A stretch of DNA of 48,499 nt from Sphaeroforma arctica JP610 (taxonomy: Eukaryota). The notes under the pieces were generated by a model that was not told the DNA's origin, made no database searches, and was given only the letters and a program-made list of their open reading frames with translations. Positions 4,637 to 38,183 of the stretch are shown here, piece after piece; within the stretch, counting starts at the first letter, position 1; each line of letters starts with the position of its first letter. The translations under genes and the position numbers were made by a program. The stretch spans positions 18,614-67,112 of the forward strand of contig NW_014040253.1 in the NCBI RefSeq assembly GCF_001186125.1, given 5' to 3'.

Positions 4637-4950
4637 TGTAAACCTGCCTGGTACCGATTAGCCTAGAATTCAGTCATGTGCTCCGAGCCTGCAGCCTATT
4701 GGTTGTTCACTGATTGGACGACGGTTAAAATGGCGCCAAGGAATGATGTCGGCACTTTGACGCGCCACACGTTAGGATGCGAAGATTGACTGTTAAAGCT
4801 TCACACGATAGGACGTAGCGCTCTGTTTACAGCTGCCGCTCTACGTCTCAAACCATGAACCTTTACAATAATACAACTCAAAAGGTCGTTCGTGCGACCT
4901 TGATCGCTTCTGAGGATATTGTTTTGCCGTCGAACAACACTTCTATCTCA
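4637..4950 (+). repeat. 5' LTR of element 1
   Basis: Begins TGTAAA, ends TATCTCA, followed by ACTGGTGATTCCCG. Shares CGCCAAGGAA, TGACGCxCCACACGxTAGGATGC and GTTTACAGCT with 10719-10926. Confidence 0.7.
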
Positions 4951-4952
4951 AC

Positions 4953-4970
4953 TGGTGATTCCCGCAAGGA
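4953..4970 (+). promoter_or_regulatory. Putative primer-binding site
   Basis: TGGTGATTCCCGCAAGGA begins 2 nt after the LTR-terminal CA; TGG is complementary to tRNA CCA. The priming tRNA was not identified. Confidence 0.5.
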
Positions 4971-16211: not shown

Positions 16212-19200
16212 ATGAGTCAGAGTCTTGCTGTGTGCTATGTGTGTCAGCAGCCAGCGGCGAGTGCCTGTCCGTGTCTGCAGCGCAGTTACTGTTCGACTAA
16301 ATGCCAGGTATGATGTCTTCCGGAGTGTGCATTGCTGGACAGGAAAGGACTCATTGTGTATATCTGGTTACAGTTTAAGGCAGGACTGTTCGCTGTGGTT
16401 CGCTGCATATGATAAAGAGATACGAATGCACTAAGCTTGATAGCTCGTGTACCTGAGTTATGATAGCTGAGTATAGTGCTAATAGAGTTTTGCATGGCGA
16501 CACACTTGTTAAACCGCACAAGCTTGGAATGAGTTAACGTCTACGTTTCATTATACCGTTCTGGCCCTGGGGTTGTTTCCGCCCCCCCCCCCTCTCCGTT
16601 TGCTTGCGCTTCAAATAGTCTGCATACTCAACAACCTCCCATGTGTAATTGGCTTATTTTAATTGGCTTATTTTAACTGGTGTATTTCATTGTAATTGGC
16701 TTATGAGCGCAGCGTGATGATTGGTACGCTGGACACGACCTGGATTGCTCGCAAGAAGATGAAGACGAGGATGAGTATGACTCTGTGGAGGCGTTAGGGC
16801 CAGCTGGTATGCAATGACTTACTTTGAGTGGAGTTCTGTGCTGTTGTGTTTGTCTCGCGTTGGTATCGACAGGCGTTGCTTTTGGGCCCATTACGTGCTT
16901 CAGCTGTGACGCGTAAACGGGCGCGTAAGGGAGTGTATATTGGTTATCGATGGTTGAAAGTGTTTGCCCCGTGCTCGCACATGTTTTTAGAAACCCCAAA
17001 CTTTAAACCCCCATTCTCTTGTTGCACCGCCTATCTCTCTGAGTTTTACTGTACGTAATTGAAACAGAATGTCCACTGGTCCGTTGTCGTCAAGTGACTA
17101 TGATGAAGACATTGTTTATTATGGGGGAACTTAGCTGTTCATTTCACTCACAGTCATAGTGCCCATTCTTATCATATTCCCTTCTAGCCACAGACGAAGG
17201 TAACGACAGTGCGCCGCAAACACACGCCACCCCCACCCAGGATGCATCTGCCTCCGATGTTCCAGTGGACAGTGCACCTGCCCAGTCCGACAGTACCAGT
17301 CCAATAATCCGAGGCAGAGGTGCAGCGATCGAGCCCATGACGGAGAATGACCTAGCATATTCGCCTGCTGTAGATGTCGAGATGGGTGCAAGTACTGCTC
17401 GCAAACGAGTGCGATCGAGTCCTTCCAATGCGTCTGCGGATGAGGATTGTGTGGTGCATGGGGATGGGTCACCGCTCCAGCGAGATAGTAGGGGCCTCCA
17501 GTTCAATTACTACATGCCAAACGAGGTGAAGAGGGCAAGGGAGTCGTCCGCCTCTCTCAGTGAGTGTAGCACGTCGTGTGGACCTGATACAGTATCTGCG
17601 CCTAAGGCAGTAGTACCAGAGGTTGTGCAAGGGCAGGACAAATGGGCAGGTGATGGTAGTGCGCATGTGAAAGGTAGCGAACAGCCTATGGGTACGCCTC
17701 GAAGGAATAGCAAGGACTTAAAGTTTAATTACTTTATGCCAAACGAGGTGAAGAGGGCGAGGAAGTCGTCCGCCTCTCTCAGTGAATATAACACATCATA
17801 TGGGCCGGATACAGTACCTGCGCCTCAGCCGATAGTACCGGAGAATGCACAAGGACAGAACAAATCAAACGGCAGTGGTCTTACGAATGTGATAGGTCGC
17901 CAGCAGCCTACACCTATAGCTAGCACTCTGTGGCTGGACACCGTTCTTTCGTATGTGCTGGCTTATACCCACCGTTATACCCACCGGGGTCCACCGCCTG
18001 GTACGTATAGCCGTGTTGCAGCACCACACACCAAGGATGGGAACTCATGCACTTCGAATGATCTCATTCACAACGATAGCAATAGGCAGATAGTCACGGA
18101 TGGCAGCTATGTTGACACGCATGTTTATGACACCTTCCGTAGCGCTATGCCGTATCCGAGCGCCAGTGGAGTGACAGATACAAATGCGACGGATAGCTCT
18201 AACACTCACCTCACAACACAGACCGTAACACATGTGGTGGAAGAGACGGCGCTTGTGAAGGAAGCCACTCTGTCGAGCACCTGTTCCGATCTAGCCACAC
18301 AACTGCTGAATGAGACGAATGTGTTCCATCCTGTGGACACACAGGACGGTCCCTTCACAGCCCACAAGCCCAAGCACCTGTCCCTCTCGAACGGACAGGG
18401 CCACAGAAATTGTACCGGCAGTGAGCTGACCCATACGAATCTGGATGGGACCGTTTGTGTCCAGAACACACACGACGGACCGGAGTGCCTATCGTCGAGA
18501 GCGCTTCAGGCGGCCCTCGACCCACACCAGGTGTGCTTTGGGGAAGGCAAGCACTGTGTGGTGGAAGATGCTGGCGATGCTGTGGGGATGAGTCCTGGAC
18601 TCCCCATTGATGCCGCCCGAGATACAACCACGCCCGTTACACCAACAGCGCAGTCTGCTATAACCCCAAAGGCCATTGGGCAAGCAAGCAGCACGGCCGA
18701 GACGGACAATCGAATTCATGTACAGGGAAATATAGACGCTAACGGCCCAGTACATGACTTGCACACGCACTCCAATGTACCTCCGGGACCGCTGCACACA
18801 CCCGTGTCTACTCGACTGAGCGGAGTGTACCCGAATGCGAATGGGTCTGTAGGGCTCCACACAACGGCCGGTACCGCACCAGCCCAGACCAATGCGAACC
18901 CGTGGATAGGCAGTCTAGGAACACCCACCCACGTGCTTAACAGGCAAGTGCATGCACACGCATTTGGTGGTGCTAGGGGAAACACATCGTCATTGCACCA
19001 GGGCCGAGACGCGCGGCAGTTTCAGTTTACTGCAGCCGCGGGGGCTGGGGCTGGCAGTGCTTTCACGGGTGGAGCTGAGCGCCCGCGTGGACTCCGCCAA
19101 GGGACGATATACAACGGTGTGGGTGCCAATACGAGCCAACCAATGTATACCCCCAATGGGGACCATCACACGAACGCATTCGCGCACAATAGCTATAGCT

Positions 19201-21329
19201 CGACTACCGCGACAATGCAGCCAGTGACAAACACATCACGGATTGGTCAGGCATTCCCGTCCGTAGCGAATCGGGACAACCCGCATATACGCGGCTTCCG
19301 AGATAGCACTGGTCGTATACATGTGTATGATGGCAATCAGTGTATAGGTGTAACCGGATCAGCCGGGGCATCTGGTGCGCAAACATTTTTATATAACAAT
19401 ACCGCGAGTAGCCATAATCCTGCTATGAGGGTAAGTGCGGAATACATGCGACAGTCGGACTACTCAACTGTATTCGTACGCCTCAGCCAAGGGATGCAGG
19501 CTACCAACGTAGAGATGGAGGCTATCAACCAGGCTATCAACGCAGCAACAGCAAACAGAGCTGTGAATAAGACTCAAGGGTCTGGAGAGACAGACGGATT
19601 CAGTAAGATAACAGGCCAATGGCAAGCACCATCCACAGGAGTGAGTGACATGCACAGGCGAGGTACTACACAGCCCAGTGGGGTTAGTAGGATTAATAGT
19701 ACACAATCCAATGGAGTGAATGTGACTGATAGTACACAATCCAATGGAATGAATGTGGGTGATAGTACACAATCCAATGGAGTGAATGTGACTGATAGTG
19801 CACAATCCATTGGGGTGAATGTTATTGATAGCACACAATCCAATGGAGTGAATGTTATTGATAGCACACAATCCAATGGAGTAATTAGGATTAGAGGGCA
19901 TCAGCCGGAACGGCCCAACCAACAGAATAGCCGACGCATGGATGTGGAATCCATTTTGAAGGTGTTGGACTTGAATAAAAGACGTCTAAACGTGGACGCA
20001 CAAGATCACAACCTACAAAGCACGCTGACGGTAGATAACGGATCCATCCCACCGCACCGTGTGTGTATAGATCTGACCGTCTCAATAGATGAACCCAATG
20101 CAACCGATGAGACCATTTCCCCAGCCCAAGAGTCAAGCGAACCCCTTGGCGTCAACAGTGGTGTTGAGCCGCAAAGTGTGGGAGCACACACCGCTGAGGA
20201 GCCTTTAAGCATGAAAGTACACACCGCTGAAGAGCCTTTAAGCATGAAAGTACACACCGCTGAAGAGCCTTTAAGCATGAAAGTACACGCCGCTGAAGAG
20301 CCTTTAAGAATGAAAGTACACACCGCTAAGTATGAGCGCGATGCAGAGCCTTCGTCTCCCGCGAGACCGCGCACGCCACACAGTGACGACGCCAAGGCAG
20401 AGCAGAAAAGCAGTGCAACGGTGGCTGTTAGTGGCAGTGAGTTAGCTACTACTATAGGCAGTGGGGTGTTACCCACTGCTAAGGCCAGCGGCGCCTTAGC
20501 TGTTGAGCCGGAAGGCACGGCCTGTGTATACCATGGCTGTGAAGTGACGATGGTTGGCAGCCAGGCACGTAGGCAGCACGAGCAGACCGCACACGGCTAC
20601 AAGCCGTCTGTTGGTCTACCATACGCGTGTGGGCTGTACAACTGCACCAAACGATCAACCACGCTTAGAGCCAGAAACAGCCATGCAAGACACTGCGAAC
20701 GACGCCACAAGTACTGTTGTAGTTGGGTCGGGTGTGGGTCTCGGTTTGCCTCAGACTACGCGCTGAACGTGCATTACAGATCGCACACGGGCGAGAAGCC
20801 CTTTGAGTGCAAATACGCCGGGTGTGGGGAGACCTTTATGGACGTGACTGCGTGTGGCACACACCAGGCCGACCACTGCCAGTTCAATCCGACACTCAAA
20901 GGAACGGATCACCGACTACCACTAAAGAAGTCGCAATCAGTCACTGGTTCGAAGAAGTCAAACCCCACCAGCCTCAGGAGATGCTCATCCGCTTGGAAAG
21001 AGTGGCAACCACCAGCCACCTACGAATCAACGCATGCAGCTGCTACACGCACAGACACGGCGGGCAGCGGGTCAGGCAGCGAGAACTCGAGTGACGCGCC
21101 CATTGGGAGGCCCCACTCGAGAACTCTGGGTAGTAGACAGCCAAGCACACTCTCAAAGGTAAGTAAGAAGATGTACCTGTGTACTTATAGTGGCTGTGAT
21201 GAACAGTTTGCGCAGGAAGAGCGACAGCAGCGACACACACTCACCCATATATGTGCGTGGAATGGCTGCTACAAAACGTTTTTGGACCCGAAAGATTGTA
21301 TTGCGCACTTCTGGCTGCACAACTGTTGA
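16212..21329 (+). CDS. MYND-finger plus C2H2 zinc-finger protein, ~1443 aa (likely transcriptional regulator)
   Basis: Exons 16212-16307, 16713-16806 and 17188-21329 have consistent phases (4332 nt in total). The spliced N-terminus CYVCQQPAASACPCLQRSYCSTKCQ|RDDWYAGHDLDC is a MYND pattern. The C-terminus has six C2H2/C2HC fingers with a TGEKP linker. The ATG is preceded by CAG-A, so a further upstream exon is possible. Confidence 0.88.
17500..17875 (+). repeat. In-frame 222-nt (74-aa) internal duplication
   Basis: FNYYMPNEVKRARESSASLSE vs FNYFMPNEVKRARKSSASLSE at 17502 and 17724. Confidence 0.9.
19697..19882 (+). repeat. Coding 33-bp minisatellite (STQSNGVNVxD), ~6 copies
   Basis: Visible in both DNA and translation. 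Confidence 0.95.
20184..20328 (+). repeat. Coding 33-bp minisatellite (HTAEEPLSMKV), ~4.5 copies
   Basis: Visible in both DNA and translation. Confidence 0.95.
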
Positions 21330-21560: not shown

Positions 21561-21895
21561 ANNNNNNNNNNNNNNNNNNNNNNNNNNNNNNNNNNNNNNN
21601 NNNNNNNNNNNNNNNNNNNNNNNNNNNNNNNNNNNNNNNNNNNNNNNNNNNNNNNNNNNNNNNNNNNNNCTGCGAGTACATCTTGGCTCATTATTACACT
21701 TACACTACAATTTGTTATTACTGCCTAATACAGTTCGTTAGATTAGTGATGTAGCTTGTGGCACTTTATGTGCCACACGCCACTTCTGTGTACTCAAACA
21801 TTATGACCGTGTAAATTCACATGGCATTATGACCATGCGACTTCACATGTGTGAATCCTCACAAATAATGATGACACAGATATTTTGATAACTGT

Positions 21896-22154
21896 TGTCA
21901 GGTCTGGTCGGCCCAAATCCTGGCCAAGATTTGGGTCGGCCAAAACCTAGCCCTAAAACCCTAGGGCTCAGTTCACAGTCAATCATAACCCCTCGCTACG
22001 ATTGCGTGTCGGCATAGCTTGCCTGAGGCGCCGTCGTAGCCTTACTGTGTCTGAGCACAGTCGCCTAGCGACCCTGCCCCGTGTACGTCTAAAAGAAGAA
22101 AAAAAAGAAAATCAACCTATGCGCACATCGTGTGCGCATCCAGAGAGGCTTACT
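21896..22154 (-). repeat. Putative 3' LTR of element 2, preceded by a PPT at 22155-22166
   Basis: The minus strand reads GTGGGGGTGGAA (PPT), then AGTAAG (likely a mutated TGTAAG), ending ...CCTGACA. The partner LTR is not visible. Confidence 0.55.
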
Positions 22155-22398
22155 TTCCACCCCCACTTGGGAGGTGGAGTTCGTCCACCCTACCTCACCC
22201 TTGAGGATTTCACTACGGCAACTAATGACGAGCTGGCACTTCTACTCTGTTCTCGGACAACTGCAACTCGCCCCAAGCCCGGAGGCGTCCTCGCCTGTAC
22301 GTTCCAGACTAAGCAAAGGCAAAGCACTTCTCTACTTGGCGTTTGAAGTGTGCTCTCTACTTCTCATCCGAGAACATGCTCTCCAACAGCTTGTTGTA

Positions 22399-22830
22399 TC
22401 ACTTGTGAAGCACATGCTGACCCTTAGACCCTGGTACCAACAGTGTGTAGCACTCCAGGTCCGCCTCGTCACACCACATCTGCCACCTGCCCCAGACCGA
22501 GCTCATGCCAGTAGACCACGTACGCGCCTTCTTGGTTCGACGAAGGCAGTGTCCTATCGTCTGCTTGTACCCATCCTTCTTGTCATAAAGCGGCGAGTGG
22601 TATAGGAGCCAATCCTCATACGGACTATTCGGGCGATAACGCATGTGTGTCCTCGCATCTGCTTCCTTCGGGAGTTTCCCAATGTGCGGTTTCAACTCCG
22701 CCCTAAGAAACCTGCGGTGAATACCATCCGCCATCTCCACCACATGAGTGAGTGGAGCTTGCACTGACACCACCTGCGCTGGGCCACCCCACCTGGCTGA
22801 CAGGTCGTGTGACTTGCCGCGCAACCGATA
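22399..22830 (-). pseudogene. Integrase C-terminal GPY/F module and chromodomain
   Basis: DLSARWGGPAQVV (GPY/F-like); IGHCLRR / AYVVYWHE (shifted frame) / MWCDEADLECYTLL, which matches the chromodomain pattern YxVxW...TWEPEENLxCxxL. Confidence 0.7.
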
Positions 22831-23049
22831 CTATACTTGCGAACCAACCGGCAACAACGGCACATCTTCACGCCTGATGTTGGCACGAGTCTGCTGTCCC
22901 AACTGAGCACGACGGTCCCGCATGGCTGCTACAGCATCGCGGACCATCGCCTCAGTGCCCTGCTCCGATTCCAGCAGCGACAACACCCGATCTTGTAGCT
23001 CCAGTCGCTTCTGAACGTTGAAGTCTCTGCCCGTCAGATAAAAAAGGGC

Positions 23050-23540
23050 GAGAAACCCGTGGCCGAATTACGCGTAGCATTGTAGATCCTCACCATTTCA
23101 TAGACCAGGTGCAACTATGCATGCGGAGAAACATCTGCTGCTTCTATCTCCCTGCGCAACCAGTCCTTCATCGTTCTGATAAGGGTCTCTGGTCGCCCGT
23201 TGCTCTGATGCCGATCCACCGTGATCCAGTGCGGTTCTATGTTGCGACGTTGGCAGAAGGTCGTAACATCCCCGTTCTGAAACTTCTTGTCCGCGTCAAT
23301 CACCAGTCGCACCGGTGAACCCTACGCTAATACTTGCTCCTCCATGAAGCGAACAACAGCCGGACCATCCACATTAGGACCAGTCATCCGACACATCCTG
23401 ACACGCGTCGCATCTTTGTCGCACATGAGTGCACTCCATGGTGCCACTCCAACCCCACAATGTGCGTACAAGCTGGTCCAATCGCTTGGCACTTGCGTGC
23501 GCAAATAGCTCGTGGGTGTAACGTACAATCCGCTCCACAA
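23050..23540 (-). pseudogene. Retroviral-type integrase (HHCC finger plus partial DDE core)
   Basis: THELFAH...CDACQ; PVRLVIDADKKF; HQSNGRPETLIRTMKDWL. The first catalytic Asp region appears deleted. Confidence 0.85.
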
Positions 23541-23889
23541 TTGTACCCCCCACTTCCACCCCGAAGACCGAGCGCTCATCTTCCTCATTCTCATCCACGG
23601 GGTCTGCTTCCCTCCTAGCACGTTCCTCAGCACTAAGAGATTCCTGAACCTCTGGTTCATCCAGATCCATGTCGCCCTGAACAGGCAGCATGTCGACAAT
23701 CTCGGCCGAGTCTCTCTGTCTCCTAGTGAGCTTCGGAGACTCCGCACTCTGGCTTCGAGTGTACATAGCTCCTATAGACCCCTCAGCCTGAGACTCGTCA
23801 CACTCGTCCTGCTAGGTTTCCGCCTTGCGTACAGACTGCTCCAGCACTCCGCTGGGATCCTGCCAGGACTGCGTGGAAAACGCGTCTAC

Positions 23890-24300
23890 CGCAGAGATGG
23901 GTGTGGTCTCTACCCCTGCTTCCTCTGCAGGGAGCACACACCTAGCTCTCTCACTACTCGGATGGGTAACAGCACTCACTGTGTCTTCCTGCACCATACA
24001 GGACACAGCCTCATCCTCACGTTTACTGCCGCCGCCAGAGACTTTCGCTGGGAACCCGCACCTAACCCTCTTACCACTCGGATGAGTCACAACACCCACT
24101 GTGTCTTCCTGCATCATACAGGACACAACCTCAACCTCACACATACTGCCGCCGCTAAAGATAGGTGTAGCCTCTACCCCAGCTTTCGCTGGGAGCCCAC
24201 AACTAACCCTCTTACCACTCGGATGGGTAACAGCACCCACTGTACCTGCCTGCACCATACAGGACACAACCTCAACCTCACGTTTTACTGCCGCCGCAGC
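23890..24300 (-). repeat. Three in-frame tandem copies of a ~40-50-aa unit in the MTase-integrase linker
   Basis: EVEVVSCMVQxxTVxAVTHPSGKRVxCGxPA repeated three times. Confidence 0.9.
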
Positions 24301-24384
24301 TAACCTCTCGAAGACAGGACGCTCCGCTTCCAGCTTCACCCAAAGGTCCTTACGCAACTTGTGCGGTCTGTACGGACTCATGTG

Positions 24385-24790
24385 ACACACCAATGTCACA
24401 AAGTTAGGCGCAGGCATAACCTCACGGCCATGCTGTAAGAAAACTCCTTCCTTTGGGTAGATCACTACCGGATTTGCCGAAAGCATGGGTACCATCTCCC
24501 TAAACCACCTCGCCTCCGGAGCGTACGGACAAACCAACGTAGCTGTTGCCTTGTCCCTCCTGATCCTGGCTACCACTCCGCCAAATTCTGACCACTTAGG
24601 GTTGAAGTACCACCTTGTACCCTTCCATGTGCACAATGCAAACACCCCCCCCCCCCCCCACCCCCNCCCCCCCCTGGCCAGCGTAGGCTGGTAAAACAGC
24701 TTCATATGAAAGTTGGTCGGATTCTAATCCTTCTATATCTTGGTAAACCAACTCTTACTCAAGGCATAGGACTCCATCTTTGGTTCCACC
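24385..24790 (-). pseudogene. DIRS/Dam-like DNA N6-adenine methyltransferase domain inside the Gypsy pol
   Basis: ESYALSKSWFTKI*KD*NPTNFHMKLF...FALCTWKGTRWYFNPKWSEFGGVVARIRRDKATATLVCPYAPEARWFREMVPMLSANPVVI matches the retroelement MT pattern W..L...F..I...DLFA...AF...W....YxNPPF...V..KI..D.A...LV.P.W....WF. It is in the same frame as RNase H, interrupted by two TAG codons. Confidence 0.75.
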
Positions 24791-24849: not shown

Positions 24850-25260
24850 CGGGTCAATGTGGTAGCCCAAATGCGACTGCATATCAGCCACAGGATTCAA
24901 CACACCCGGTATGTGCTTGAGTACTACGTCAAAGTCTCTCAGTACTTGGGCATAGCGGGCCATCCTCCGATCTCTCACCGACGAATCGTACGACAGCGGC
25001 TCCTTCGTCAGCATCGTGACTAGCGGTTCATGGTTCGTGTAGCTCGTGAGTGGATGTTGCGACCTCTTGACTATGTTCCATGACTTGTGTAAGCAGTACA
25101 TAATGGCAAGAGCCTCCTTATCCGTGATGTGGTAGCCTAACTGGGCAGGGCTGAACTTTGACGACCAGAATTCTACCGGGCAGAGCTTCTTTTCTCGTTG
25201 AGCAAACAGCCCACCCCTACAGGGTCGCACGCATCGCAGTACATCTCCAGCTTATCATCG
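24850..25260 (-). pseudogene. Ty3/Gypsy RNase H
   Basis: MYCDACDPVGVG; PVEFWSSKFSPAQLGYHITDKEALAI; YTNHEPL (TDH changed to TNH); LKHIPGVLNPVAD. Confidence 0.92.
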
Positions 25261-25299
25261 AACAGATGTTCAACCAAAACCCCCCTCTTGGCCACCTCA

Positions 25300-26223
25300 G
25301 CTCGGGTGCGTTTATATGCGTCCTGCTGGATCGGACCCCAAACAAAAGGGACATCCTTCTTGCTAAGATCTGAGATAGGTGCCATGATCCTGGAATAATC
25401 CGGAATGTACTGACTCCAGAATCCTATAGTGTGATACCAAGACCTTATCTGTGGGTGGGGGCATGCGTAAGATAGACTCCATCCGATCGTCGCTGATGGC
25501 CGAGCCACTCTCATCCACCAACCGCCCCAGCGCCAGAACTGCTCTGTCGGAAAAACCAAAACAGCACTTCCTCAGATTCAGCTTGACATTATGCTTCTTG
25601 CACGCGGCTATCAAGGCCTTGATGCTCGTCCAATGTCTCTTAGTATCATTGTCGGCCACACCCATATTATCAATATAGGCCTTAAGACTGTCGACACTTT
25701 GGAAAGCATGTTTCATTCGTTGCTGCATAACCCAAGACGCCGGCTTGATACCAAAATGCATACCCACAAATGTGCGCTTACTCCAAGGCGTCCAGAACGT
25801 CAAGAGATGCTGAGACCCCTCCGCAACCTTGAGCTGACAGAATCCTTGCCCACGATCAACCATGGTCTGATACTTCTTACCTCGTACCGCTGACAAGAAC
25901 TCTTGCTCCGTAGGCACAGGATATTCCTCACACTCCAACGTATCATTGAGCTTCTTAAAGTTTATACAACACCACCAGTCGTTGACTGACAATGGTACAA
26001 ACTCAGGTTTCTTAAAAACCATGTGCGGCATAGCACAATAGCCTTTTGCCTCAGCTTCCGATATCTCTCGGGTTATACCACCATGGTCCCAGTCACCAAC
26101 CTTCCCACCGAGCACCGTAGTGAAGGTAGGATCCTTGTTAGGGTGTACATTGTAGCACGGCTGCGACCCATCTTTCACTTTAAATTCAACTCCATGAAGG
26201 AAACGGATGTCGCCAAAGACCAC
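25300..26223 (-). pseudogene. Ty3/Gypsy reverse transcriptase, catalytically mutated
   Basis: WWCCINFKKLND, YPVPT, DRGQGFCQL, TFWTP, MHFGIK, YIDN (YxDD with D to N), LNLRKCCF, IGFWSQYIPDYS. Confidence 0.95.
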
Positions 26224-27862
26224 GAAAGTGGGGGCAGCCGCATTGTAAGCTACAGACCTTCAGCAGCACGCACGCCTTGTGCAGCTTATGTAACTGGGAT
26301 TGGTCGAACTCCAAATGCGCCTGTGGGTCCACTTCTTTGGCCGGGGATACCGTCGTCGCTCCAATGGGCATGTCAACCTCTGCTAACAAGTCATGCAGCC
26401 GTGGCAACACATACTCGTCTACATTGTCTAGCTCCGCCGTATTGGCCAAGTAATCCAGCCTCTTCTTGATATCCATAAAGTGCGCCTGCACTGAAGCAAT
26501 GTAGTTCTTGCGTTGCTGCTCCCTAAACTCATTCCTGTGGATCGCCCTCAAATCGAGATGGCTGCGCAGCGAATTGAGCTCAGGCTCTGCGGAATTCGCA
26601 CATCAAGTCTCCGCGTCTTGCATCGAAATTGTGTGCGCCGTGCTGTCGCCCGCTTACCCGGCGGGCTCAGCACTACCGGCTGATTATCATCTGCTGCCTG
26701 AGACTCCAGAAAGTCTATGACCTGAGTCTNNNNNNNNNNNNNNNNNNNNNNNNNNNNNNNNNNNNNNNNNNNNNNNNNNNNNNNNNNNNNNNNNNNNNNN
26801 NNNNNNNNNNNNNNNNNNNNNNNNNNNNNNNNNNNNNNNNNNNNNNNNNNNNNNNNNNNNNNNNNNNNNNNNNNNNNNNNNNNNNNNNNNNNNNNNNNNN
26901 NNNNNNNNNNNNNNNNNNNNNNNNNNNNNNNNNNNNNNNNNNNNNNNNNNNNNNNNNNNNNNNNNNNNNNNNNNNNNNNNNNNNNNNNNNNNNNNNNNNN
27001 NNNNNNNNNNNNNNNNNNNNNNNNNNNNNNNNNNNNNNNNNNNNNNNNNNNNNNNNNNNNNNNNNNNNNNNNNNNNNNNNNNNNNNNNNNNNNNNNNNNN
27101 NNNNNNNNNNNNNNNNNNNNNNNNNNNNNNNNNNNNNNNNNNNNNNNNNNNNNNNNNNNNNNNNNNNNNNNNNNNNNNNNNNNNNNNNNNNNNNNNNNNN
27201 NNNNNNNNNNNNNNNNNNNNNNNNNNNNNNNNNNNNNNNNNNNNNNNNNNNNNNNNNNNNNNNNNNNNNNNNNNNNNNNNNNNNNNNNNNNNNNNNNNNN
27301 NNNNNNNNNNNNNNNNNNNNNNNNNNNNNNNNNNNNNNNNNNNNNNNNNNNNNNNNNNNNNNNNNNNNNNNNNNNNNNNNNNNNNNNNNNNNNNNNNNNN
27401 NNNNNNNNNNNNNNNNNNNNNNNNNNNNNNNNNNNNNNNNNNNNNNNNNNNNNNNNNNNNNNNNNNNNNNNNNNNNNNNNNNNNNNNNNNNNNNNNNNNN
27501 NNNNNNNNNNNNNNNNNNNNNNNNNNNNNNNNNNNNNNNNNNNNNNNNNNNNNNNNNNNNNNNNNNNNNNNNNNNNNNNNNNNNNNNNNNNNNNNNNNNN
27601 NNNNNNNNNNNNNNNNNNNNNNNNNNNNNNNNNNNNNNNNNNNNNNNNNNNNNNNNNNNNNNNNNNNNNNNNNNNNNNNNNNNNNNNNNNNNNNNNNNNC
27701 CATTTGGAATATTCAAATGAATGCTATACAAATGGGTTTGAATTGATCCTTTCAATGTTATCTTTCGATTTGCCTGCCATGTGCGTATCTTGAGTGCGGC
27801 AGATATTAGGTTACCTCTACCATCACATACAATACAGTAACGACTCAATACATACATAACAG

Positions 27863-30052
27863 CTGAACGAAGATTTCCAAAACATCACCTTCACGGTGAT
27901 AGATGATGACTTGCTTATGGACGATAAGGTTGGATCAGTCAACTTTAACATAGAATCGCACAAACTGTTGCAAGGGCAGACGCATGAGGGCTGGTTCCCG
28001 TTGGATGGGGATGCACGCAATGGTAAGGAAAGTGCGTGTATGAATAGTATAGTAGTATGTGTGCGTTTACATGCCTCGTCGGATTATATAAACCTTTCGC
28101 AATCCCTCTCCTATGATCTAGAAATGCTTGGCAAAGAAATGTTTTGATTTTTGTGCCCTCTTCAAATACACGCACAGGTCCAATCGAATCCGCATATGCA
28201 GACATGTCACTATTCACGTATACTTTCTTTCATGCGGGTGTGTTTTGTTTGAGCGTATATGGACACAACCTAGACCCAAAACTCACACATAGATCCGCCA
28301 AAACGCGCACTTTTGCACAGACTATATAGTGCATATTCACGGTTCATTCACTTTTGTGGTTTAAAATAGTACAAGATATATCCCATCACACCAGTAGAAA
28401 CATAACACCTCACTGCACCTGAAGATCGACCTGACACTGGCCCCAACAATTTCCACCTAGTCCCGTACACACCCGTGCACACACACTTCGCGTGTATACG
28501 TTAGTATATACTACGGTCACATATTACAAGTTGATAGGGTGGCGTGTCTATAATGTAGATTATTCTTCAGTGCGAACCTTTATGTACTATACTTATATCC
28601 TGCACGTAGGCGAAATTTACCTGACACTGGCCTTCCGCGTGGCTGGCAGCGAGATCGATGTACCGAACTGTTACTTCGATGTACGCGAGAACTCCAAATG
28701 CACACTGTATCAAGATGCGCACCATGATGACGGCGACCTACCTACGCTGGTGAAGGCCAACGGAGAGGAATACGAGCACGGAAAGTGCTGGAGTGATCTG
28801 TACACAACCGTACAAGAGGCTGAACATTTCATTTATATTACGGTGGGTCATGCGTGCTGTTGAGGGTTGGTTCCGTAAATGTGCTGTTGTAGTGATAGTA
28901 CCACATCACTCATATTGCTGTGTCCCAGAGTGCTGTTAGTGCTTGTATACGCGAGGGTGCTGCTTAGGTAGTACCACGTCGTCTACGCCATGTTAGGTGT
29001 TGGTTTGTTCATGTGTAGCTGCGGTAGCATCATTGATTTTGTGCTGGTGCAATCTTGCTGTGCTTGTGGCTGTTGGTATTACATGGCTTAAGTATTTTTT
29101 TTTAATTTAGTGGGACAATGGGAGAGTCCTTTTAATCTATATAATAGGACAATGAGAGAGTCCTTTTAATCTATATAGTAGAACAATGGGAGAGTCCTTT
29201 TAATCTATATAGTAGGACAATTGGAGAGTCCTTTTAATCTGCATAGTAAGACAATGAGTGAGTTATTTGATTCTATCACCCGCACACACCTACTCATCCC
29301 ACGCGCCTAAATAAGTAAGCCTGATGCAAACACACTGAACTATACGCATACACTCACGGTTGCGTACAACCATAGGAACGGCCAGAATGGATTTACAGGT
29401 AGTACTGTCTCTGCTAGGCTTAGGCGAACTATCTCGTCAGCAACCGCTCACAACCGCGTCACCAAAAACTTTCATCTATAGCTATCCCGTATACGCGCTT
29501 CTAATTAAAAGCACGCGTTTACAATGGCGTACATAAATACAGGGATGGGCGGTGTGGATCAACACGGTACTGTGTCGTGGAGAGGGTGATGATTCCACCA
29601 GCTTGGGCCAACTTTTACGACAGAAGGCGGCTCAAGGCGTAAAGATTTGTCTGTTGGTTTGGAATGAGAAGACCACTTTGCAGAAAGGAGAGTTTGTGCT
29701 GAACGGGATGATGGGCACACACGATGAGGACGTATGTGCTCCCACTCCAAACGTGTCTCTGTACATGTTGTGTATTGTATCTACCTGTATTTCGTTGTCA
29801 GTCCTTGTTTGTACTCAGTTCACGATTAAATATAGTATCATATATTTGCCTACGTGTTATGTATAGCATGTACCTGTATTTCAGTGCTTGACCAGGTCCG
29901 TATATAGCACCACCACAAAGGCATGTGCTTGAATTTATCTGCAACCCAGAACACAATCATGATAGTCTAACTGACGATCGTTTAGGTGCTGAAAACTGCT
30001 GCGCACTATATGTTACATATATATCTGCTTGCAATGCTTGCATATGTATATA

Positions 30053-30104
<52 letters not shown>

Positions 30105-32331
30105 GAGTTTATCTGTAAATGGTAATATCCGTGTATAGTGCGTATTTTTTTTATAGCTTTTGAACTACAATGGCGTTTTCTTGTTTGTATGAATGATGGA
30201 TGAGCATGACGCAGAAATGCAGAAAAATCAATCGACTCACATTTCTGCAGAAATGCAGAAATACCGATCGACTCACATTTCTGCAGAAATGTTTTGTGTT
30301 TCTTCTGATGTGAATCAAAACAGGGGAATTTAGAATTAGCTATCCATACGACGTACAAAGTAAGCCCCCACCCACCAGCACTGTAAATTCGCGTGTTGTT
30401 TGCGAGGTAGTCCGAGGGTGTGTGTGCACGCAACCAACAGCTTGGCTATATCAACGCATTTGAAGGTATCACATAGAATCCCATTCAGGCTTGATTTCGT
30501 GGATCTGTTCGAATATCGTACACCAATACCGACCTGGCAACACAGCAGACATGGGTGGTTCGGATGAGGTGAAGCAGATCGAGGTCTTCGAGAACATCAA
30601 GTGTGAGCTACTAACACACTGCGTGCCCTAGGGAACAACTGCGCGCTTTGTTTTTACGTACCATTGAAAACTTGTTGATGGTGTATCCCATTTACATTCA
30701 TTCGTCAATGTGTTGTTACATACATCTCCTCATATCACACAATGCTACTAGATTAAACTATACCACAGACGCGACTGTTTTTGTAAAAGACTTTGGGGCC
30801 TACGAGTATACCAAGTGCAAGCCAGCCACCTGCTACGCATCTCGGAAAGCGCACGCATACCTTGTTGTATTTTGCGCGCCACAAAAATTCAATCAATACG
30901 ATACAAATATTCACGGATGTGTGTGAAATAAAGGTGTGCAGGTTCTGACGTCTGACACACAATCATATGACATCCCTCCCACACCGCAGACGCGCGTGTT
31001 TTTTGAGGAGGAGTTCGAGGGCTACAAGAATGTCAAGTGCAAGCTAGCCACACGCTACGCATCTCAGGGTGCGCTGACACAGTTTGTGTTCACTCATCAC
31101 CAGAAGTCGGTGATATGTGACAGTCCCTGTGCCGAATATCCCGACAGAAAGCGCACTGTGGCGTTTATGGGTGGTATAGATCTGTGCGATGGTAGGTACG
31201 ACACACCCAAGCATCCCATTTATAGAACACTGCAGAGCATACACAAAGACGACTACCACCAGGTCTGGCCGGGCATTACACAGGAACATGGGCCAAGGCA
31301 ACGTAAGTGTGCAGTGTGTGTTAAATTGGGGTGGAGGTGAGTAGTACGGGTCTGAGGGCTTTGCTTGTCATTTGCCGCCCCCCAATCAGTCTAAGAACAG
31401 ATTCATGTGCATTGTATCACAAAAATGTGCACAATCAATCCGACGACCTAGTACCTAAACTCGAGAAGATACCCCATAGTTTAATTCTAGATATATATGG
31501 GGAGTATGCATTCTCATAGCCTGGTTGTGAGCAGTATGCATATGCTCGTGTATGTGATTGTAGCTGTAATAGCTATACTTCTTTTTACACCTATGCTCAA
31601 ATCGCTCAAAAGAATGCATACAGCTGCACATTTAAATGATTTTTGTGGGTTCTTTCATCGCACAGCGTGGCACGATATACACAGCAAAGTAGAGGGCCCT
31701 GCAGCCCTGATGGTCAAGACAAACTTTGTAGATCGATGGTATGGACATCTATCTCGACACTAGGATTCGTGTCTTCGGGGTTTTATATCTAGGCTAATAT
31801 GTGGCCTCAAAGTGTTACGGCTGAATCTATCTTATGCCCCTGCTGTACTGCTTGTATCGAGCATGGTGTAGTTGCTATATCTAGTTGGTATATTCCCGTA
31901 GCGTTTGAAACGTATGTTCATCTTTGCACGTGTACAAGCAAGGAGTCATATGTGTTCAATGTGTAAATATCTGACCTGAAACATGTGCAAGGAGGGGTCT
32001 GTATTGATATACTTACATCGGCCAACAATACTACAGCCTTTGTGCAATTGAATGTCACCACCTACAAGTTCGATACTGACAGTTTTTATGCACGATTTTT
32101 TATTCAGGCACGAACAAGGCAGTAAATACCTGGCATTTCTCAAGGTGGGTATCTAGTCTTGTGTGTATATATGTATTTGTAGACGTATCCATACACAGAC
32201 AGACGTCTGTATGAACTCTTAGAATTGAAAGTTGCGGTGGTTGTATTTATGGTTATGAAGCACACGATCTATCTACAAAAACTCAACGTCTGTACACAAT
32301 CCATTTGTGTGAGATACTGATATATATATAT

Positions 32332-32393
<62 letters not shown>

Positions 32394-35300
32394 ATGTATG
32401 TATGTATGTATTTATATGTATATATGTATATATGTGTATATATATAGGTTTTACACACTTCGATCTGGACTTATCAATTCTCTTTGTTTGCGTGTGATTA
32501 GGTATGGAGAGACGACGATGGGCCCATGTTATCAGAAGAAGAGGAGGGCACACTTTACGCAGAGGATCCGGAGAGATGGTCAGCTCAACTTTTCAGGAGC
32601 ATTGATGGCAGCAGTGCTCGTTTCCCCAACCTGAGTTTTGCCGAGCAGTTACAGGAACAGTTACAAGAGATTGGCAAGCACCATGTAGAGAATAGCATCC
32701 ATACAGGTGAGGTTTTAGTACATTTGTGTGTGTGTTTTGTATTTGCAATGGTGTGTGTGTGTGAGTACGTGTATGTTCGTAGTAGTCATACACGTGTGCT
32801 TGTTTGTATACATGCATACATGAGCTTGAACGGTATCAATAGTAGAAGACAATATCATGGCCTGAGCTGCATTGAAATTAATAAGGTGCTATGGCCCGGA
32901 GATTATCGGATGTCACTTAGATTCTAAATTAGCATATCTGTACCTGTATACGTGTCGGAAATTGGGCTATATCTGTGTGTACAGGGAGGAAATTGTTCTT
33001 CTAAAAGCCATGTGATCTGCTGTTCTCATCTCGACAGCAAGCACATCCCTATATTCTATCAATTTGTTCTGTGTATTCTTTTGCATCAAATAGGAAGGTG
33101 GCTTCATAATAATGTACCGTAGCATATCAAATCTCAATCGACTGCGCACTATAGATTGATGTATCTACATAGTCGACTTGTACCATAGATTCGTATACCC
33201 ACGGTGTACCTGTTTATGGTTATGGATCGAAGTGTTTCCGTGCTGGAATTGTCGTTTAGTTGCTTTCCAGTTCTCAATCACTTACGTACCGTAATATCAT
33301 ACAGCCATGGTACACCACATAAGGCGTGCTGAGCGGTTCATATACATTGAGAATCAGTACTTCATTGGCTCCGCTCCACACTGGAATGAGCAACAGAATT
33401 CAGGTGCGATAAATCAGGTCCCGGCCGAACTTGCGATTAAAATCTGCCAAAAAATCGCGGCCGGCGAACGCTTTGCAGTGTATATCCTCATTCCCCTGTT
33501 TTGTGAAGGGTGGCCAGAGGAAGCGGCACCCAATGAAATCATGTTTTATCAGGTAAGAAACGTTTCTGTTCTGTATAGTATATGAACCTGTACACATTGA
33601 TATCCATCTACACATTGATATCAATCTACACATTGATGTCCAATGCTGTATACCGCTATTAAATAAAGTGATCCGTCAGAAAGTTACGAAGATAGATCCG
33701 TGGACCAGGAAGTCTGGCTTTGGCATATAAGTGTATTGTTTGCGGTGCAAAGGTGTAGACGCTGTGAGGGCACAATATTCGACTCGCCAATTCATTACCG
33801 CTCTTTTTTTTGGCTTGTTTGTGATTCCAGTAGAATAGGGATTTATGTACTGAGAAGTGTGTACTGGTCAAATTGAGGTCAAATACCATTGTTCATTATA
33901 ACAATGCGATATGTTTTGGGCATTAGTTGTCTACAGAGTCTGAGTGTCGTTTATGTTTTCTGTGATCAGATTGACCGTCAAAGGCTAAGTTGCTATCACG
34001 AGCAGGTATCAAGTCCAAGCTATGTATAGTCATTTGTGTTATTTTCTATGTCAGCACGACTACAACACATGCGTAAACCACTCGTCACTACAGTGATACT
34101 TCTCTATACATAAACCTACCTATGAATTTACTCTCACGAACATACACAGTAGTAAATACTACATACACATACTTTAGTATACACAGGTCAGCTTAACTAA
34201 CACTGCCCACATCACAATATCTACGGCACTCTAGTTTTTGACGTTCGAGTTCATGTACAAATGGATTGGTGAGGCTATTCAACGCGCAGGCAGTGACGCA
34301 CACCCCAAGGACTACTTAAACGTCTTCTGCCTGGGCTGTAGAGAAACAGGTATGTGCAGATAGTGTGCTATGGTTTTACGTTTGCACTTAGTCGCAACCA
34401 CAAACGTCTCAGAGTAGTACGCAGAGATGAGGTGCGAAGGGCTGGTCCCATGCAAAAGCGTGTGGGTCAGTGGGTAGAACAGCGAATGTATATGCTTACC
34501 CATTCTACGGTTTACGGTAGTCCCTATATACCCATGCACATCTGTGCAATGGAACAGCGAATGTATATGCTTATCCTTTTTTACGGTATACGGTAGTCGA
34601 TATATACCCATGCATATCTGTGCGGTAGAACAGCGAATGTATATGCTTCTCCTTTTTACGGTATACGGTAGTCGATATATACCGATGTATATCTGTGCGG
34701 TAGAGCAGCGAATGTATATTCTTATCCTTTTTCGGTATACGGTAGTCGATATATACCCATGCATATCTGTGCATAAATTGATCAGACGGATCGCATGCTA
34801 TGCCCTGCTCCCCAATATCGCCCGCTGTGACCTACCTGGTTGTGCATATACCCATTTTGTTTTTGTTGTGTCCTTTACTATATAATCTTTATTTCTATGT
34901 GCAGCTTATCTATCTGGAATTTTAATTGTGTGCACGTAATGTATATAACAGTTATACTTTCCTGCACATTGTTCTTGTATACATAACTTAGTTATGCTAT
35001 CTACGCTTGCGTATGATATGTGTCGTAGTTGCGCAAACATCCATTCACAGCTTATATACGTGTATATATATTTCGACATTTACAATCATTGCATAATCTG
35101 TTGTCTGCTAGCGCGGCTGTGCTCGTTGTGGTGTTTCGATGGCCTCACGTTGTGTGATATCCCGAAATCACAAGGTTGTTGTTTGTCCGTGCATGTCTAC
35201 TAATAATAATCTCAAGCCAGGAGGCCCTTACTAATACGTGCACATCAGATTTGTACTTTTTTTGACTATCGTCTCACTTTGCTGCGTATGAATGCATGAA

Positions 35301-38183
35301 TATGTATGTACATGTTTGTACTTGCGTTTAAATGTGTCTACCTGCACTTGTGTATGTACGTATACGTGTATTTATACATCCACTTCCCTTTGTTCCTGTT
35401 CTGTGCCTATGCGTCCATACAGAAGAAGGCTCTGATCACACGGCAGATCTAAGGAGCTGTCCGCCCGCGAGCCTCCAGGCAAAAATCAACGCATCTCGAC
35501 GGTACATGGCGTATGTACACTCTAAGATGATGATTGTTGATGATGAATACGTCATGGTTGGATCGGCAAACATCAATGAGGTGTGTTCGCTGACGTGTGG
35601 TGTTCGGCCACTTCTATCGGCTGTGAAACTCAATCCGCCTACATATGTATGTGTGTATAGACGTGTACATCTGTGTCAGGAACGAACCGATTTTTTATTG
35701 GTCCCGGTAGATATACAGCGAAAGGTTGTATTTGCACAAGTAACAAGACGATACTTATCACCATTCTTACGACGCAATTTTGTGACATATAACTGAAAAT
35801 AGTTAGTATACTGTGTCGTGGATACTATACTTCCTGTATATGATATAGTTTCGTGGCCCAGGACAACATGATACTTTGCCCTGCTATGTACTATATTGCC
35901 TCTCCCCATTCTGATATGGTGCAGGAACTAGAGCATTACAATAATAAGCGATTCACATAATTCAGTATATCTCAAGTTATTCGACATCATGCCGCCTGGC
36001 CATGCAGACCCAATTCATTGTCTACCATTATTTATCTTCGAATTAATAGCACCCATGGGGTGTCCTCACGACTGAAAGTGATATGTATTGTAACTGGTTG
36101 ATACTACTTTGTGGTGTTGTTTAGAGCTTCAACTCCCTCGAAGATCTTGCTCACATTTCACCACTCTTCTTTTGTATCTGTGTCTACTGTACCATCGCAG
36201 CGCTCCCTGGCTGGTGATCGAGATACCGAGCTGTGCATGGGTAAGCATATGTGTTCTATATATTATGTGTATTCTTGAAGCTGGGTACTGTATCTTCAGA
36301 AGATCAACGTGTTCTGTGGCGTTGTCATGCTGTCTGCTCCGGATTTGGGCTTTGTATTAGGTAGTGTTCAAGCTGTGAATTACACGCACGGGATGTAAAG
36401 TCCGATAGCTTGGGCCCACGTTGTGCCTTGTTTGTGCAAATTTCAATCTGCACTACCGGAGTGTGAATGCCAACCAATATTGAGTTTTCACTATGTGACG
36501 GTACTGTCATACTATCGTATGCCAATATCACGAACTATTTGGTGGAAAGTGTAGATACATGTCCGGGTGCAGACTCCTAGTTCAAGCACTTTTGTGTTGT
36601 AGGAACGCTGCGACGTCAAAATGTACCTTACACGTATTCAATTTCAATACAAATCCATCCGGATAAAACTCAACAATTCAGGGTTTAAATAGTTGTTGGG
36701 GAAGATAACTTGCCAATTGTGATAGCCACCCCTAACCCCAAGTCCTCAACTTCTTCCGTTGGTAGGTATGTATCAACCTAACTACCGGAGGGAAGAGAAC
36801 AATGAGTTACCCAAAGGCGACGTGGCGTGCTTCCGCAAAGCACTCTGGTGCGAACACGCGAGCTCCGTCGCAGACGAGAGCGATGTGTTAGACCAGCCAG
36901 ACTCCATGGAGTGTGTGAAGATGATGCGGGTGAGTTCGTTGGCATTTACGGGTGTGATTGTACTGTGTCGCACTGACAGTGGTTGTTTATTGGTGTATAT
37001 GTGTAGTTTGGTGTGGAACCGTGGAAGTTTCTGTTCGTACTGTGATAGCAAATGTAGGCGTGTATATTTAGTATCTAGTTTACACATATTCTGGTTGCGT
37101 GGAAATTTTACTCTTTTTTCAATATGATGAACCCACATATGTATTAATAGCGATGAGAACGAACACTATATCTGAATCGAGCATCGTCAGCTTGTGATTG
37201 CTAGTGATGGCTTCGTGAGCAGTATATTCCATGTGCGGTAACCCGTAGTAATGGTCAAAATATAGCTCGGTCTTTGTTCTGTACATTGGGTACATTGGGT
37301 CTACGGTACAATAGATTTTTATGGAGATTGCGTGAGTGACATGTATCTGTCATTGAGTTGCGTCTACAGCTATTCTTAACTTCGAATCTTCTAGTTTTAG
37401 GAGTTTTAGGCCTCGCTTATGCCATATTTTTGCTTCGGAGTTGGAAATGGTATACAAAAAAGGTTTATTCAGTCTATCCATTCCAGAGGAAGTGAATGAG
37501 ATCGTGATGATAGATAAGAAGTTCTCCAACAATTCCAGTATGATAAATTGACGACATCGCAAAGCATTCGAATTTGCACTTTTGTTACTTTGGCATTGCT
37601 CGCCTCGATCGTATCTTGCGAAAGCTTAGAATAGCAAACCAGATTTTATTCTTGGCATATTCTTCCAGAAAATACTAGCGTGTATTCGTCTGTATGAATC
37701 GAATTCGCAATTCTAAGAACGCTCTACAAGTAAATACACGCATAAACTTATTCAAGAGCATATTTATCGGGCCTTTGGACGCATTATATCCATTCTCATG
37801 CGTACGTTCACATACATGTATGTATGTCACACCAATGAGTGTACTATATCCATCCGTCTGTGCTTGTGAATGACTTTGTTTGCCTAGAACAACCCTGTAT
37901 TGAGCTTAAAAGCGCGATGTAAACCCATTTTAGCTTTTGCGACTATTCCTAAGTATGTGCACCTACCTACCAACCTCGCTCACAGAAACGCGCCGATGAG
38001 AATTGGGCCAAATACAGCGGCGACGAGGTTGTAGACATGGAGGAACATCTGATGACGTATCCATTCAACGTAGCGAGAAATGGGAAAATAGCCATCATTC
38101 CTGGCCAGGAAGACTTCCCTGATACGAATGCCCGGGTGCATGGCAAATGCTCTGGTACTATGCCTGATATTTTGACCACTTAA
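27863..38183 (+). CDS. PLD: Phospholipase D, plant-type C2-PLD (alpha/beta/gamma/delta-like); N-terminus missing or in the gap
   Basis: 13 phase-consistent exons: 27863-28022, 28610-28842, 29543-29731, 30990-31302, 31666-31738, 32108-32144, 32502-32706, 33305-33552, 34235-34349, 35423-35580, 36201-36240, 36766-36929, 37986-38183 (710 aa). Motifs: C2 end (FTVIDDD..EGWFPL), LYQDAH, FIYITGW, HKD1 ([10 protein letters not shown]), [47 protein letters not shown]2 ([20 protein letters not shown]), PLD_C ending PDILTT*. Confidence 0.96.
29112..29275. repeat. 34-bp tandem repeat, ~4-5 copies, in a PLD intron
   Basis: GGACAATGGGAGAGTCCTTTTAATCTATATAGTA units. Confidence 0.9.
30390..30890 (+). pseudogene. 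Decayed tandem duplicates of the 5' part of the PLD HKD1 exon
   Basis: 30549-30680 reads [30 protein letters not shown]; 30769-30890 reads [33 protein letters not shown]; the true exon reads [35 protein letters not shown] shorter third trace lies at ~30390-30420. Confidence 0.8.
32320..32446. repeat. (TA)n/(TG)n/(TATG)n microsatellite (another at 30042-30102)
   Basis: Directly visible. Confidence 0.95.
34472..34772. repeat. ~75-bp tandem repeat, 4 copies, in a PLD intron
   Basis: GAACAGCGAATGTATATGCTT...ACGGTAGTCGATATATACCCATGCATATCTGTGC units. Confidence 0.92.

What the first reader, a model, noticed from the sequence alone, without database searches (positions are those of the whole stretch)
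24385..24790. Gypsy/chromovirus pol carrying a Dam-like N6-adenine methyltransferase between RNase H and DDE integrase
Seen: an MT-like domain in the same frame as RNase H, followed by a repeat linker, an HHCC-DDE integrase, GPY/F, a chromodomain, PPT and LTR. Established: this Dam-like MT domain directly after RNase H is characteristic of DIRS-type tyrosine-recombinase retrotransposons, whereas canonical Ty3/Gypsy pol is PR-RT-RH-INT. Inference: an LTR lineage with RT-RH-MT-INT-CHD architecture that could mark its own cDNA or target site with 6mA while reading chromatin through the chromodomain. This copy is dead (YIDN, stop codons).
Basis: partly seen in the sequence, partly recalled or inferred. 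Interest (0 to 1): 0.88.

Follow-up and report, generated by a model that had tools for sequence, protein, structure and literature searches.

The report
Dead Gypsy retrotransposon with Dam-like methylase
This is a broken copy of a repeated Gypsy-type jumping gene, likely from the protist Sphaeroforma, that really carries a phage-like adenine-methylase domain between RNase H and integrase, but this kind of element was described in a 2026 preprint and the claimed chromatin-reading chromodomain was not confirmed.

Summary
The Dam-like domain is real. It lies at 24373-24777 (minus strand) in the RNase H frame. 15 of 30 HMMER hits carry Pfam Dam, and its predicted fold best matches N6-adenine methyltransferases, at modest Z (7.0). 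It is a family trait: seven Sphaeroforma arctica proteins carry parts of it, some bridging to RNase H or to the linker. RT scores 54-62 bits against four Gypsy RTs and below zero against DIRS RTs. An HHCC/DDE integrase follows, with weak Pfam scores. This architecture, in S. arctica by name, is the 'Ichthyosporean DAM-LTR lineage' of bioRxiv 10.64898/2026.05.21.726589, which is said to lack chromodomains. The chromodomain was not confirmed: the frame under selection (14 of 23 variants synonymous) has no chromo match, and a YVVYW look-alike lies in an unconserved frame. This copy is dead: about 9 codons of the likely SAM-binding motif are missing, with stops and frameshifts. The family's motif reads NPKW or NAPF, never NPP (0 of 4). 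The scan found such elements before in other genomes. Verdict: known, low interest.

The parts
25534..25905 (-). Reverse transcriptase core (in ORF 25363-26259); catalytic box reads YIDN at 25666-25677
   Evidence: Pfam RVT_1 7.1e-10; best PDB sequence hits 8r0s 'Enzymatic polyprotein' 8.9e-13 and Ty3 RT 4ol8/7q5b 1.4e-11/8.5e-11
25173..25571 (-). RT connection and RNase H N-terminal part, in another frame (frameshifts near 25440 and 25250)
   Evidence: RT_RNaseH_2 E=5e-4; other copies carry 11 extra letters at 25442 (table 4)
24931..25212 (-). RNase H (Ty3/Gypsy type)
   Evidence: Pfam RT_RNaseH 5.2e-14
24373..24777 (-). Dam-like N6-adenine methyltransferase domain, same frame as RNase H; motif IV reads NPKW at 24592-24603; about 9 codons of the likely SAM-binding motif missing, two TAG codons, G-run insertion
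   Evidence: AlphaFold2 pLDDT 73, pTM 0.68; VIA best hit PCIF1 Z 7.0, rmsd 4.4, 118 aligned
23550..24370 (-). Linker with three 115-nt tandem repeats (23927-24302) and a stop at 23812-23814; repeat number differs between paralogs
   Evidence: (family D8); by eye P0003 and P0005 hold one unit, P0006 two
23395..23541 (-). Integrase HHCC zinc-binding domain
   Evidence: Integrase_H2C2 E=0.0028, under the curated cut-off
23040..23471 (-). Integrase DDE core, frameshifted against HHCC near 23434, with stops
   Evidence: rve E=0.021, rve_3 E=0.032, under cut-offs; other copies carry extra letters at 23433-23437
22666..22860 (-). SH3-like integrase C-terminal domain (the GPY/F-like region)
   Evidence: model residues 1-65 align with SH3/Tudor-type barrels including RSV integrase CTD (Z 5.5, rmsd 2.5, 48 aligned) and PFV integrase (Z 5.3)
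22225..22620 (-).
   Evidence: shared with S. arctica paralogs P0034, P0036, P0037; 14 of 23 variants synonymous in this frame; no Pfam, PDB or Atlas match
21896..22168 (-). Weak PPT-like tract (22168-22160) and possible 3' LTR (22159-21896, TG...CA); not verified
   Evidence: sequence; contig depth falls and loose ends appear near 21886; no 5' LTR available

Best explanation
This is a decayed copy of a multicopy Ty3/Gypsy-type retrotransposon, likely of Sphaeroforma, whose pol carries a Dam-like domain between RNase H and integrase, and it likely belongs to the ichthyosporean DAM-LTR lineage of the May 2026 preprint. Shown here: domain order, shared frame, presence in sister copies, breakage of this copy. 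Inferred, following the preprint: an ancestor took the domain from a DIRS element. In active family members the domain would be made as part of Pol, travel in the particle, and put N6-methyladenine on the reverse-transcription intermediate or cDNA; after integration the host AMT1 enzyme would maintain the mark and keep the new copy in a transcribed state. I put about 0.4 on this writer step for this family, because its motif IV is NPKW or NAPF and no such enzyme has yet shown activity. This copy cannot do it. I find no support for targeting through a chromodomain.
For: Domain: (the top VIA rows are dominated by adenine N6-methyltransferases: PCIF1, KsgA, ErmC', CamA, M.EcoKI, M.TaqI). Family trait: 7 of the 30 hits are S. 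arctica JP610 proteins; P0002 runs from the RNase H end into the MT motif, and P0003-P0006 run from MT into the linker; in run X1 one 891-nt contig of a diverged copy covers RNase H to 24737 and, by matching depth, appears to join on to 24651 and 24491, and one 279-nt contig in X2 covers 24331-24598. The four Sphaeroforma MT sequences form one branch (SH-aLRT 96). Gypsy identity: RT 54-62 bits against P0022, P0027, P0038, P0039, 19 against P0018, -1.4 against DIRS-like P0024 and no hit to DIRS-like P0009; Ty3 among the top PDB hits; HHCC, DDE and SH3-like CTD downstream. Literature: the preprint names this lineage in S. arctica, says it lacks chromodomains, and reports more 6mA and more expression on DAM-LTRs than on other LTRs.
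Against: No direct Pfam Dam, PHROGs or PDB sequence hit for the window's own segment; Foldseek best E=0.035 and VIA Z under 8. The 8-sequence RT tree does not formally reject grouping with DIRS (p-AU 0.056). Integrase Pfam scores are under the cut-offs. No single contig spans MT to integrase. 0 of 4 Sphaeroforma sequences that cover motif IV have Pro-Pro, against 18 of 20 other homologs (alignment). The preprint found no 6mA gain when DAM domains were expressed in dam-minus E. coli. I could not see its supplements, so that this exact family is among its S. arctica DAM-LTRs is inferred.
Confidence: 0.85

Rival explanations
1. Same element, but in this family the Dam-like domain no longer methylates. 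It is kept as a nucleic-acid or SAM-binding or structural part of Pol, and the 6mA on these elements comes from host AMT1 simply because they are transcribed.
For: NPKW in 3 and NAPF in 1 of 4 Sphaeroforma sequences; the DLFA-type motif reads EGFA in P0002; negative E. coli assay in the preprint.
Against: NPKW keeps the Asn, the first Pro and the aromatic residue, the three contacts used by N6-adenine methyltransferases (recalled from M.TaqI, not tested); the core folds with high confidence (pLDDT 82-94 over residues 81-170).
Confidence: 0.4
2. The element is a true RT-RH-MT-INT-chromodomain chromovirus, and the C-terminal extension is a very divergent chromodomain that guides integration.
For: The position after the integrase CTD fits; a WxxExDL-like stretch in the coding frame (by eye); an off-frame YVVYW stretch scores 2.6 bits against a profile of two distinct chromodomains, reached by 1 of 300 shuffles; such elements exist intact elsewhere (P0022 with Pfam Chromo E=0.014, and P0027).
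Against: The coding frame scores -1.1 bits (209 of 300 shuffles as high). No Pfam Chromo hit in any of three frames or in four paralogs. Other copies are colinear without 1-nt gaps over 22384-22636; variants are 14 of 23 synonymous in the coding frame (expected share 0.25, p=3e-4) and 2 of 23 in the YVVYW frame, where most contig depth reads Cys for the Trp. The preprint says this lineage lacks chromodomains.
Confidence: 0.1
3. The MT is a one-off DIRS fragment nested in a Gypsy copy, or an assembly chimera.
For: The copy is short-read quality, with an N inside the domain and N gaps on both sides.
Against: The domain is in frame with RNase H; paralogs and contigs bridge both junctions; contigs cover the MT bins about as deeply as RT and integrase bins (not a copy number); no tyrosine recombinase family was reported for the element's ORFs scanned.
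Confidence: 0.03

Closest known systems
Ichthyosporean DAM-LTR lineage (Fernandez-Moreno et al., bioRxiv 10.64898/2026.05.21.726589; main text read in 5 of 5 parts, figures and supplements not seen)
   Same: Ty3/Gypsy-like organisation, Dam-like domain, no recognisable chromodomain, closest relatives in Sphaeroforma arctica
   Different: Motif IV is NPKW or NAPF where the preprint reports Asn-Pro-Pro in almost all DAMs sampled; a conserved C-terminal extension of about 130 aa that the main text does not mention; this copy is dead
Chromodomain-bearing DAM-LTRs (Chlorophyta DAM-chromovirus-like clade of the same preprint; P0022 and P0027 here have that kind of architecture, host not named)
   Same: RT-RH-Dam-INT order as in P0022 and P0027
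   Different: They have NPPW and a chromodomain; the window's RT and MT do not group with P0022/P0027
DIRS1-like tyrosine-recombinase retrotransposons (PMC3266345, passages read)
   Same: RT-RH-MT domain series in pol; homologous MT
   Different: DIRS use a tyrosine recombinase and inverted terminal repeats; this element has an HHCC/DDE integrase and a Gypsy-like RT
Phage and bacterial Dam-family N6-adenine methyltransferases (Pfam PF05869)
   Same: Homologous core, shown through intermediate hits; Rossmann-type methyltransferase fold
   Different: Only about 135 aa, no direct Pfam hit for this copy, activity not shown

Membership tests
Ty3/Gypsy LTR retrotransposon | Gypsy-type RT | tested here: met
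   54-62 bits against four Gypsy RTs, <=-1.4 against two DIRS-like RTs; Ty3 among top PDB hits; the tree is small and the clade test borderline
Ty3/Gypsy LTR retrotransposon | Order RT-RH-INT with HHCC and DDE integrase | tested here: met
   Order seen; H2C2, rve and rve_3 hits are weak but in the expected order, with an SH3-like CTD
Ty3/Gypsy LTR retrotransposon | Paired LTRs, PBS, PPT, gag and protease | tested here: inconclusive
   5' end lies in an N gap; only a TG...CA segment and a weak G-rich tract at the 3' end
DAM-LTR | Dam-like domain homologous to DIRS MT inside an LTR-type pol | tested here: met
DAM-LTR | Asn-Pro-Pro catalytic triplet | tested here: not met
   NPKW (3) and NAPF (1) in 4 of 4 Sphaeroforma sequences covering the motif; the preprint calls the triplet near-universal, not defining
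DAM-LTR, ichthyosporean lineage | Ichthyosporean host | tested here: met
   The closest paralogs (up to 89% identical) are S. arctica JP610 proteins; host inferred from these, not from a host gene
DAM-LTR, ichthyosporean lineage | Falls in the preprint's DAM clade (bootstrap 97) | not testable with these tools
   The preprint's sequences and supplements were not available
DAM-LTR | 6mA enrichment or methyltransferase activity | not testable with these tools
   No modified-base data or assay here
Chromovirus | Chromodomain at the integrase C-terminus | tested here: inconclusive
   No match in Pfam, the Atlas or a small local profile; the off-frame look-alike is not conserved; the model of this part has pLDDT under 50, so a very divergent chromodomain is not excluded
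DIRS1-like | Tyrosine recombinase and inverted terminal repeats | tested here: not met
   A DDE integrase follows the MT; no recombinase family on the ORFs scanned, no element-bounding inverted repeat among the 25 longest shown

The most novel reading that the evidence does not exclude
The Sphaeroforma DAM-LTR family pairs a non-canonical Dam domain (NPKW) with a conserved, so far unclassified 130-aa C-terminal module that acts as a chromatin or target-site reader (a very divergent chromodomain or a new fold), which would correct the published view that this lineage has no reader domain.
Probability: 0.12. Interest if true: 0.45.

Novelty: already known. Interest (0 to 1): 0.17.

Why it matters
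Retrotransposons that may write the 'active' 6mA mark on their own new copies are an interesting idea, but the architecture, the lineage, the host species and that model are already in a May 2026 preprint. This locus adds a broken example. Two small points may be of use to that field: the S. arctica copies seen here lack the Asn-Pro-Pro triplet, which bears on whether the 6mA enrichment reported for them comes from the element's own enzyme, and pol ends in a conserved extension of unknown family.

Tried and rejected
No whole genome is held, so no copy count, full-length copy or dN/dS was possible. The word-based homolog search with the MT against longer proteins found 0 of 149 candidates; the RT search found only 2 of 965, both ordinary Gypsy polyproteins without Dam. 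Metagenome scans with the RT and with paralog P0004 found no relative (43 and 79 pattern matches, none confirmed). PHROGs and PDB sequence searches with the MT were blank. Three of the 30 hits (P0013, P0016, P0017) are repeat-protein artefacts and were dropped from all alignments. The Atlas gave no usable hit for the C-terminal extension (best 0.85, a lead only). The fold of the C-terminal region was unreliable beyond residue 60 (mean pLDDT 43), and its PWWP/Tudor hits come from residues 1-65, the integrase CTD. My first idea of a doubly frameshifted chromodomain (note 1) was rejected. The 11 MT-region variants are mostly private to this copy (3 of 11 synonymous in every frame) and say nothing on selection in the family; that table was cut (1452 rows not shown). 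No RNA holder was listed among sequencing runs. The regex motif table mis-picked three rows (P0018, P0021, P0022); motif counts were taken from the alignment. The MT tree is too poorly resolved to name a donor. Paper searches; only the one preprint uses 'DAM-LTR'. PMC9940879 and PMC11673190 (passages) added nothing; PMC5890265 was seen only as a listing.

Full report
Anatomy. The finding lies in a retroelement on the minus strand that runs from an N gap (26730) to about 21896. In order: RT (RVT_1 7.1e-10, catalytic box YIDN), RNase H (5.2e-14), the segment in question, a linker with three 115-nt repeats, an HHCC domain (E=0.0028), a DDE core in another frame (rve 0.021, rve_3 0.032), an SH3-like integrase C-terminal domain, and about 130 further codons. 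RNase H, the segment, the linker and HHCC share one frame with four stops. Gag and protease are not visible. PPT and LTR are only suggested: a G-rich tract at 22168-22160 and a TG...CA segment ending near 21896, where contig depth falls.

Is the MT real? The window's own segment has no hit in Pfam, PHROGs or PDB sequences. Read through with X at its two stops (P0001), it finds 30 proteins among 1.84 billion representatives. Seven are S. arctica proteins, three are artefacts, and 15 of the other 20 carry Pfam Dam at E<=0.05, six above the curated cut-off. A profile of those 20 scores P0001 at 85 bits against at most 6.3 for shuffles (partly circular). The AlphaFold2 model (24 sequences, pLDDT 73, core 82-94) has no Foldseek hit under E=0.001, but the lists are dominated by adenine methyltransferases: KsgA and PCIF1 in Foldseek; PCIF1 Z 7.0, KsgA, ErmC', CamA, M.EcoKI, M.TaqI and T4 Dam (Z 4.6) in VIA. 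These Z values are modest; the case rests on sequence and fold agreeing.

Is it a family trait? Yes. P0002 (83% identical) runs from the end of RNase H through motif IV; P0003-P0006 run from the MT into the linker; P0014 runs on to a stretch that looks by eye like the HHCC start. Contigs of four runs cover all parts of the element with many diverged copies (466, 660, 462 and 71 contigs laid), and single contigs bridge RNase H to the MT start and MT to linker; none spans MT to integrase. The four Sphaeroforma MT sequences form one branch.

Gypsy or DIRS? The RT scores 54-62 bits against four Gypsy RTs, 19 against a fifth LTR-type RT, -1.4 against one DIRS-like RT and nothing against another. 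In an 8-row tree it sits away from the DIRS pair, though forcing it with them is not formally rejected (p-AU 0.056). Ty3 RT is among the top PDB hits. With the DDE integrase this makes it Gypsy-type; DIRS elements have RT-RH-MT with a tyrosine recombinase (PMC3266345, passages).

State of the enzyme. Against P0002 this copy has 5 codons where the paralog has 14 across the acidic motif that likely binds SAM (motif assignment recalled), which is where both TAG codons lie, and 8 extra codons from a G-run with an N. It is dead. In the family, motif IV reads NPKW (window, P0002, P0003) or NAPF (P0004); 18 of 20 other homologs have Pro-Pro and 12 of 20 have NPP. Whether NPKW is active is open.

Chromodomain. 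The coding frame after the integrase CTD is shared with paralogs P0034, P0036 and P0037 and is under selection: 14 of the 23 best-supported variants among other copies are synonymous (expected share 0.25, p=3e-4; variants are not independent events). It has no Pfam Chromo hit, no PDB or Atlas match, and -1.1 bits against a small chromodomain profile. A second frame holds a chromo-like YVVYW (2.6 bits, 1 of 300 shuffles), but only 2 of 23 variants are synonymous there, most contig depth changes its Trp, and other copies show no 1-nt gaps that would bring it into frame. The model of this part is unreliable. So the chromodomain is unconfirmed and unlikely; the extension is an unclassified conserved module.

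What is known. bioRxiv 10.64898/2026.05.21.726589 (main text read whole; figures and supplements not seen) describes DAM-LTRs in five lineages. One is ichthyosporean, found in Pirum, Abeoforma and S. arctica, with no chromodomain. It reports more 6mA and expression on DAM-LTRs in S. arctica, no activity in E. coli, and proposes that DAM marks RNA-DNA intermediates, with AMT1 maintaining the mark after integration. The supplements may list this family and its motif. Earlier notes of this scan report such elements in other genomes; I had found the preprint before reading them.

Verdict. Observation partly confirmed; interpretation partly supported; already known. Identity as a dead Gypsy DAM-LTR copy 0.85; 6mA-writer role in the active family about 0.4; chromodomain about 0.1. 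Interest 0.17.

Noticed in passing
P0018 (2382 aa, JGI/IMG, no name): An LTR-type polyprotein with the order protease, exo/endo/phosphatase (APE-like, 3e-11), Dam (6e-7), RT, RNase H, integrase: an endonuclease-like domain and a Dam domain both upstream of RT.
   Followed up: no
   Followed up: partly
window 27760-37100 (+): Multi-exon phospholipase D gene with a C2 domain (C2 5e-4, PLDc 1.7e-8 and 0.0058) next to the element.
   Followed up: partly
window 17160-21329 (+): Single 1389-codon open frame with internal 33-nt and 222-nt repeats and C2H2 zinc fingers near its end.
   Followed up: no
window 4800-6600 (+): GC-richer, skewed stretch that looks by eye like a decayed integrase fragment; no Pfam hit in three frames.
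   Followed up: partly
runs X16-X20: Runs labelled as two other organisms hold 20-33% of the element's words; X16 was laid and gave 71 contigs over 29 of 30 bins, so the family is likely shared with a close relative.
   Followed up: partly
P0026 (Cymbomonas tetramitiformis): DIRS-like protein with RNase H, Dam and a weak Tudor-like hit directly after the Dam domain.
   Followed up: no
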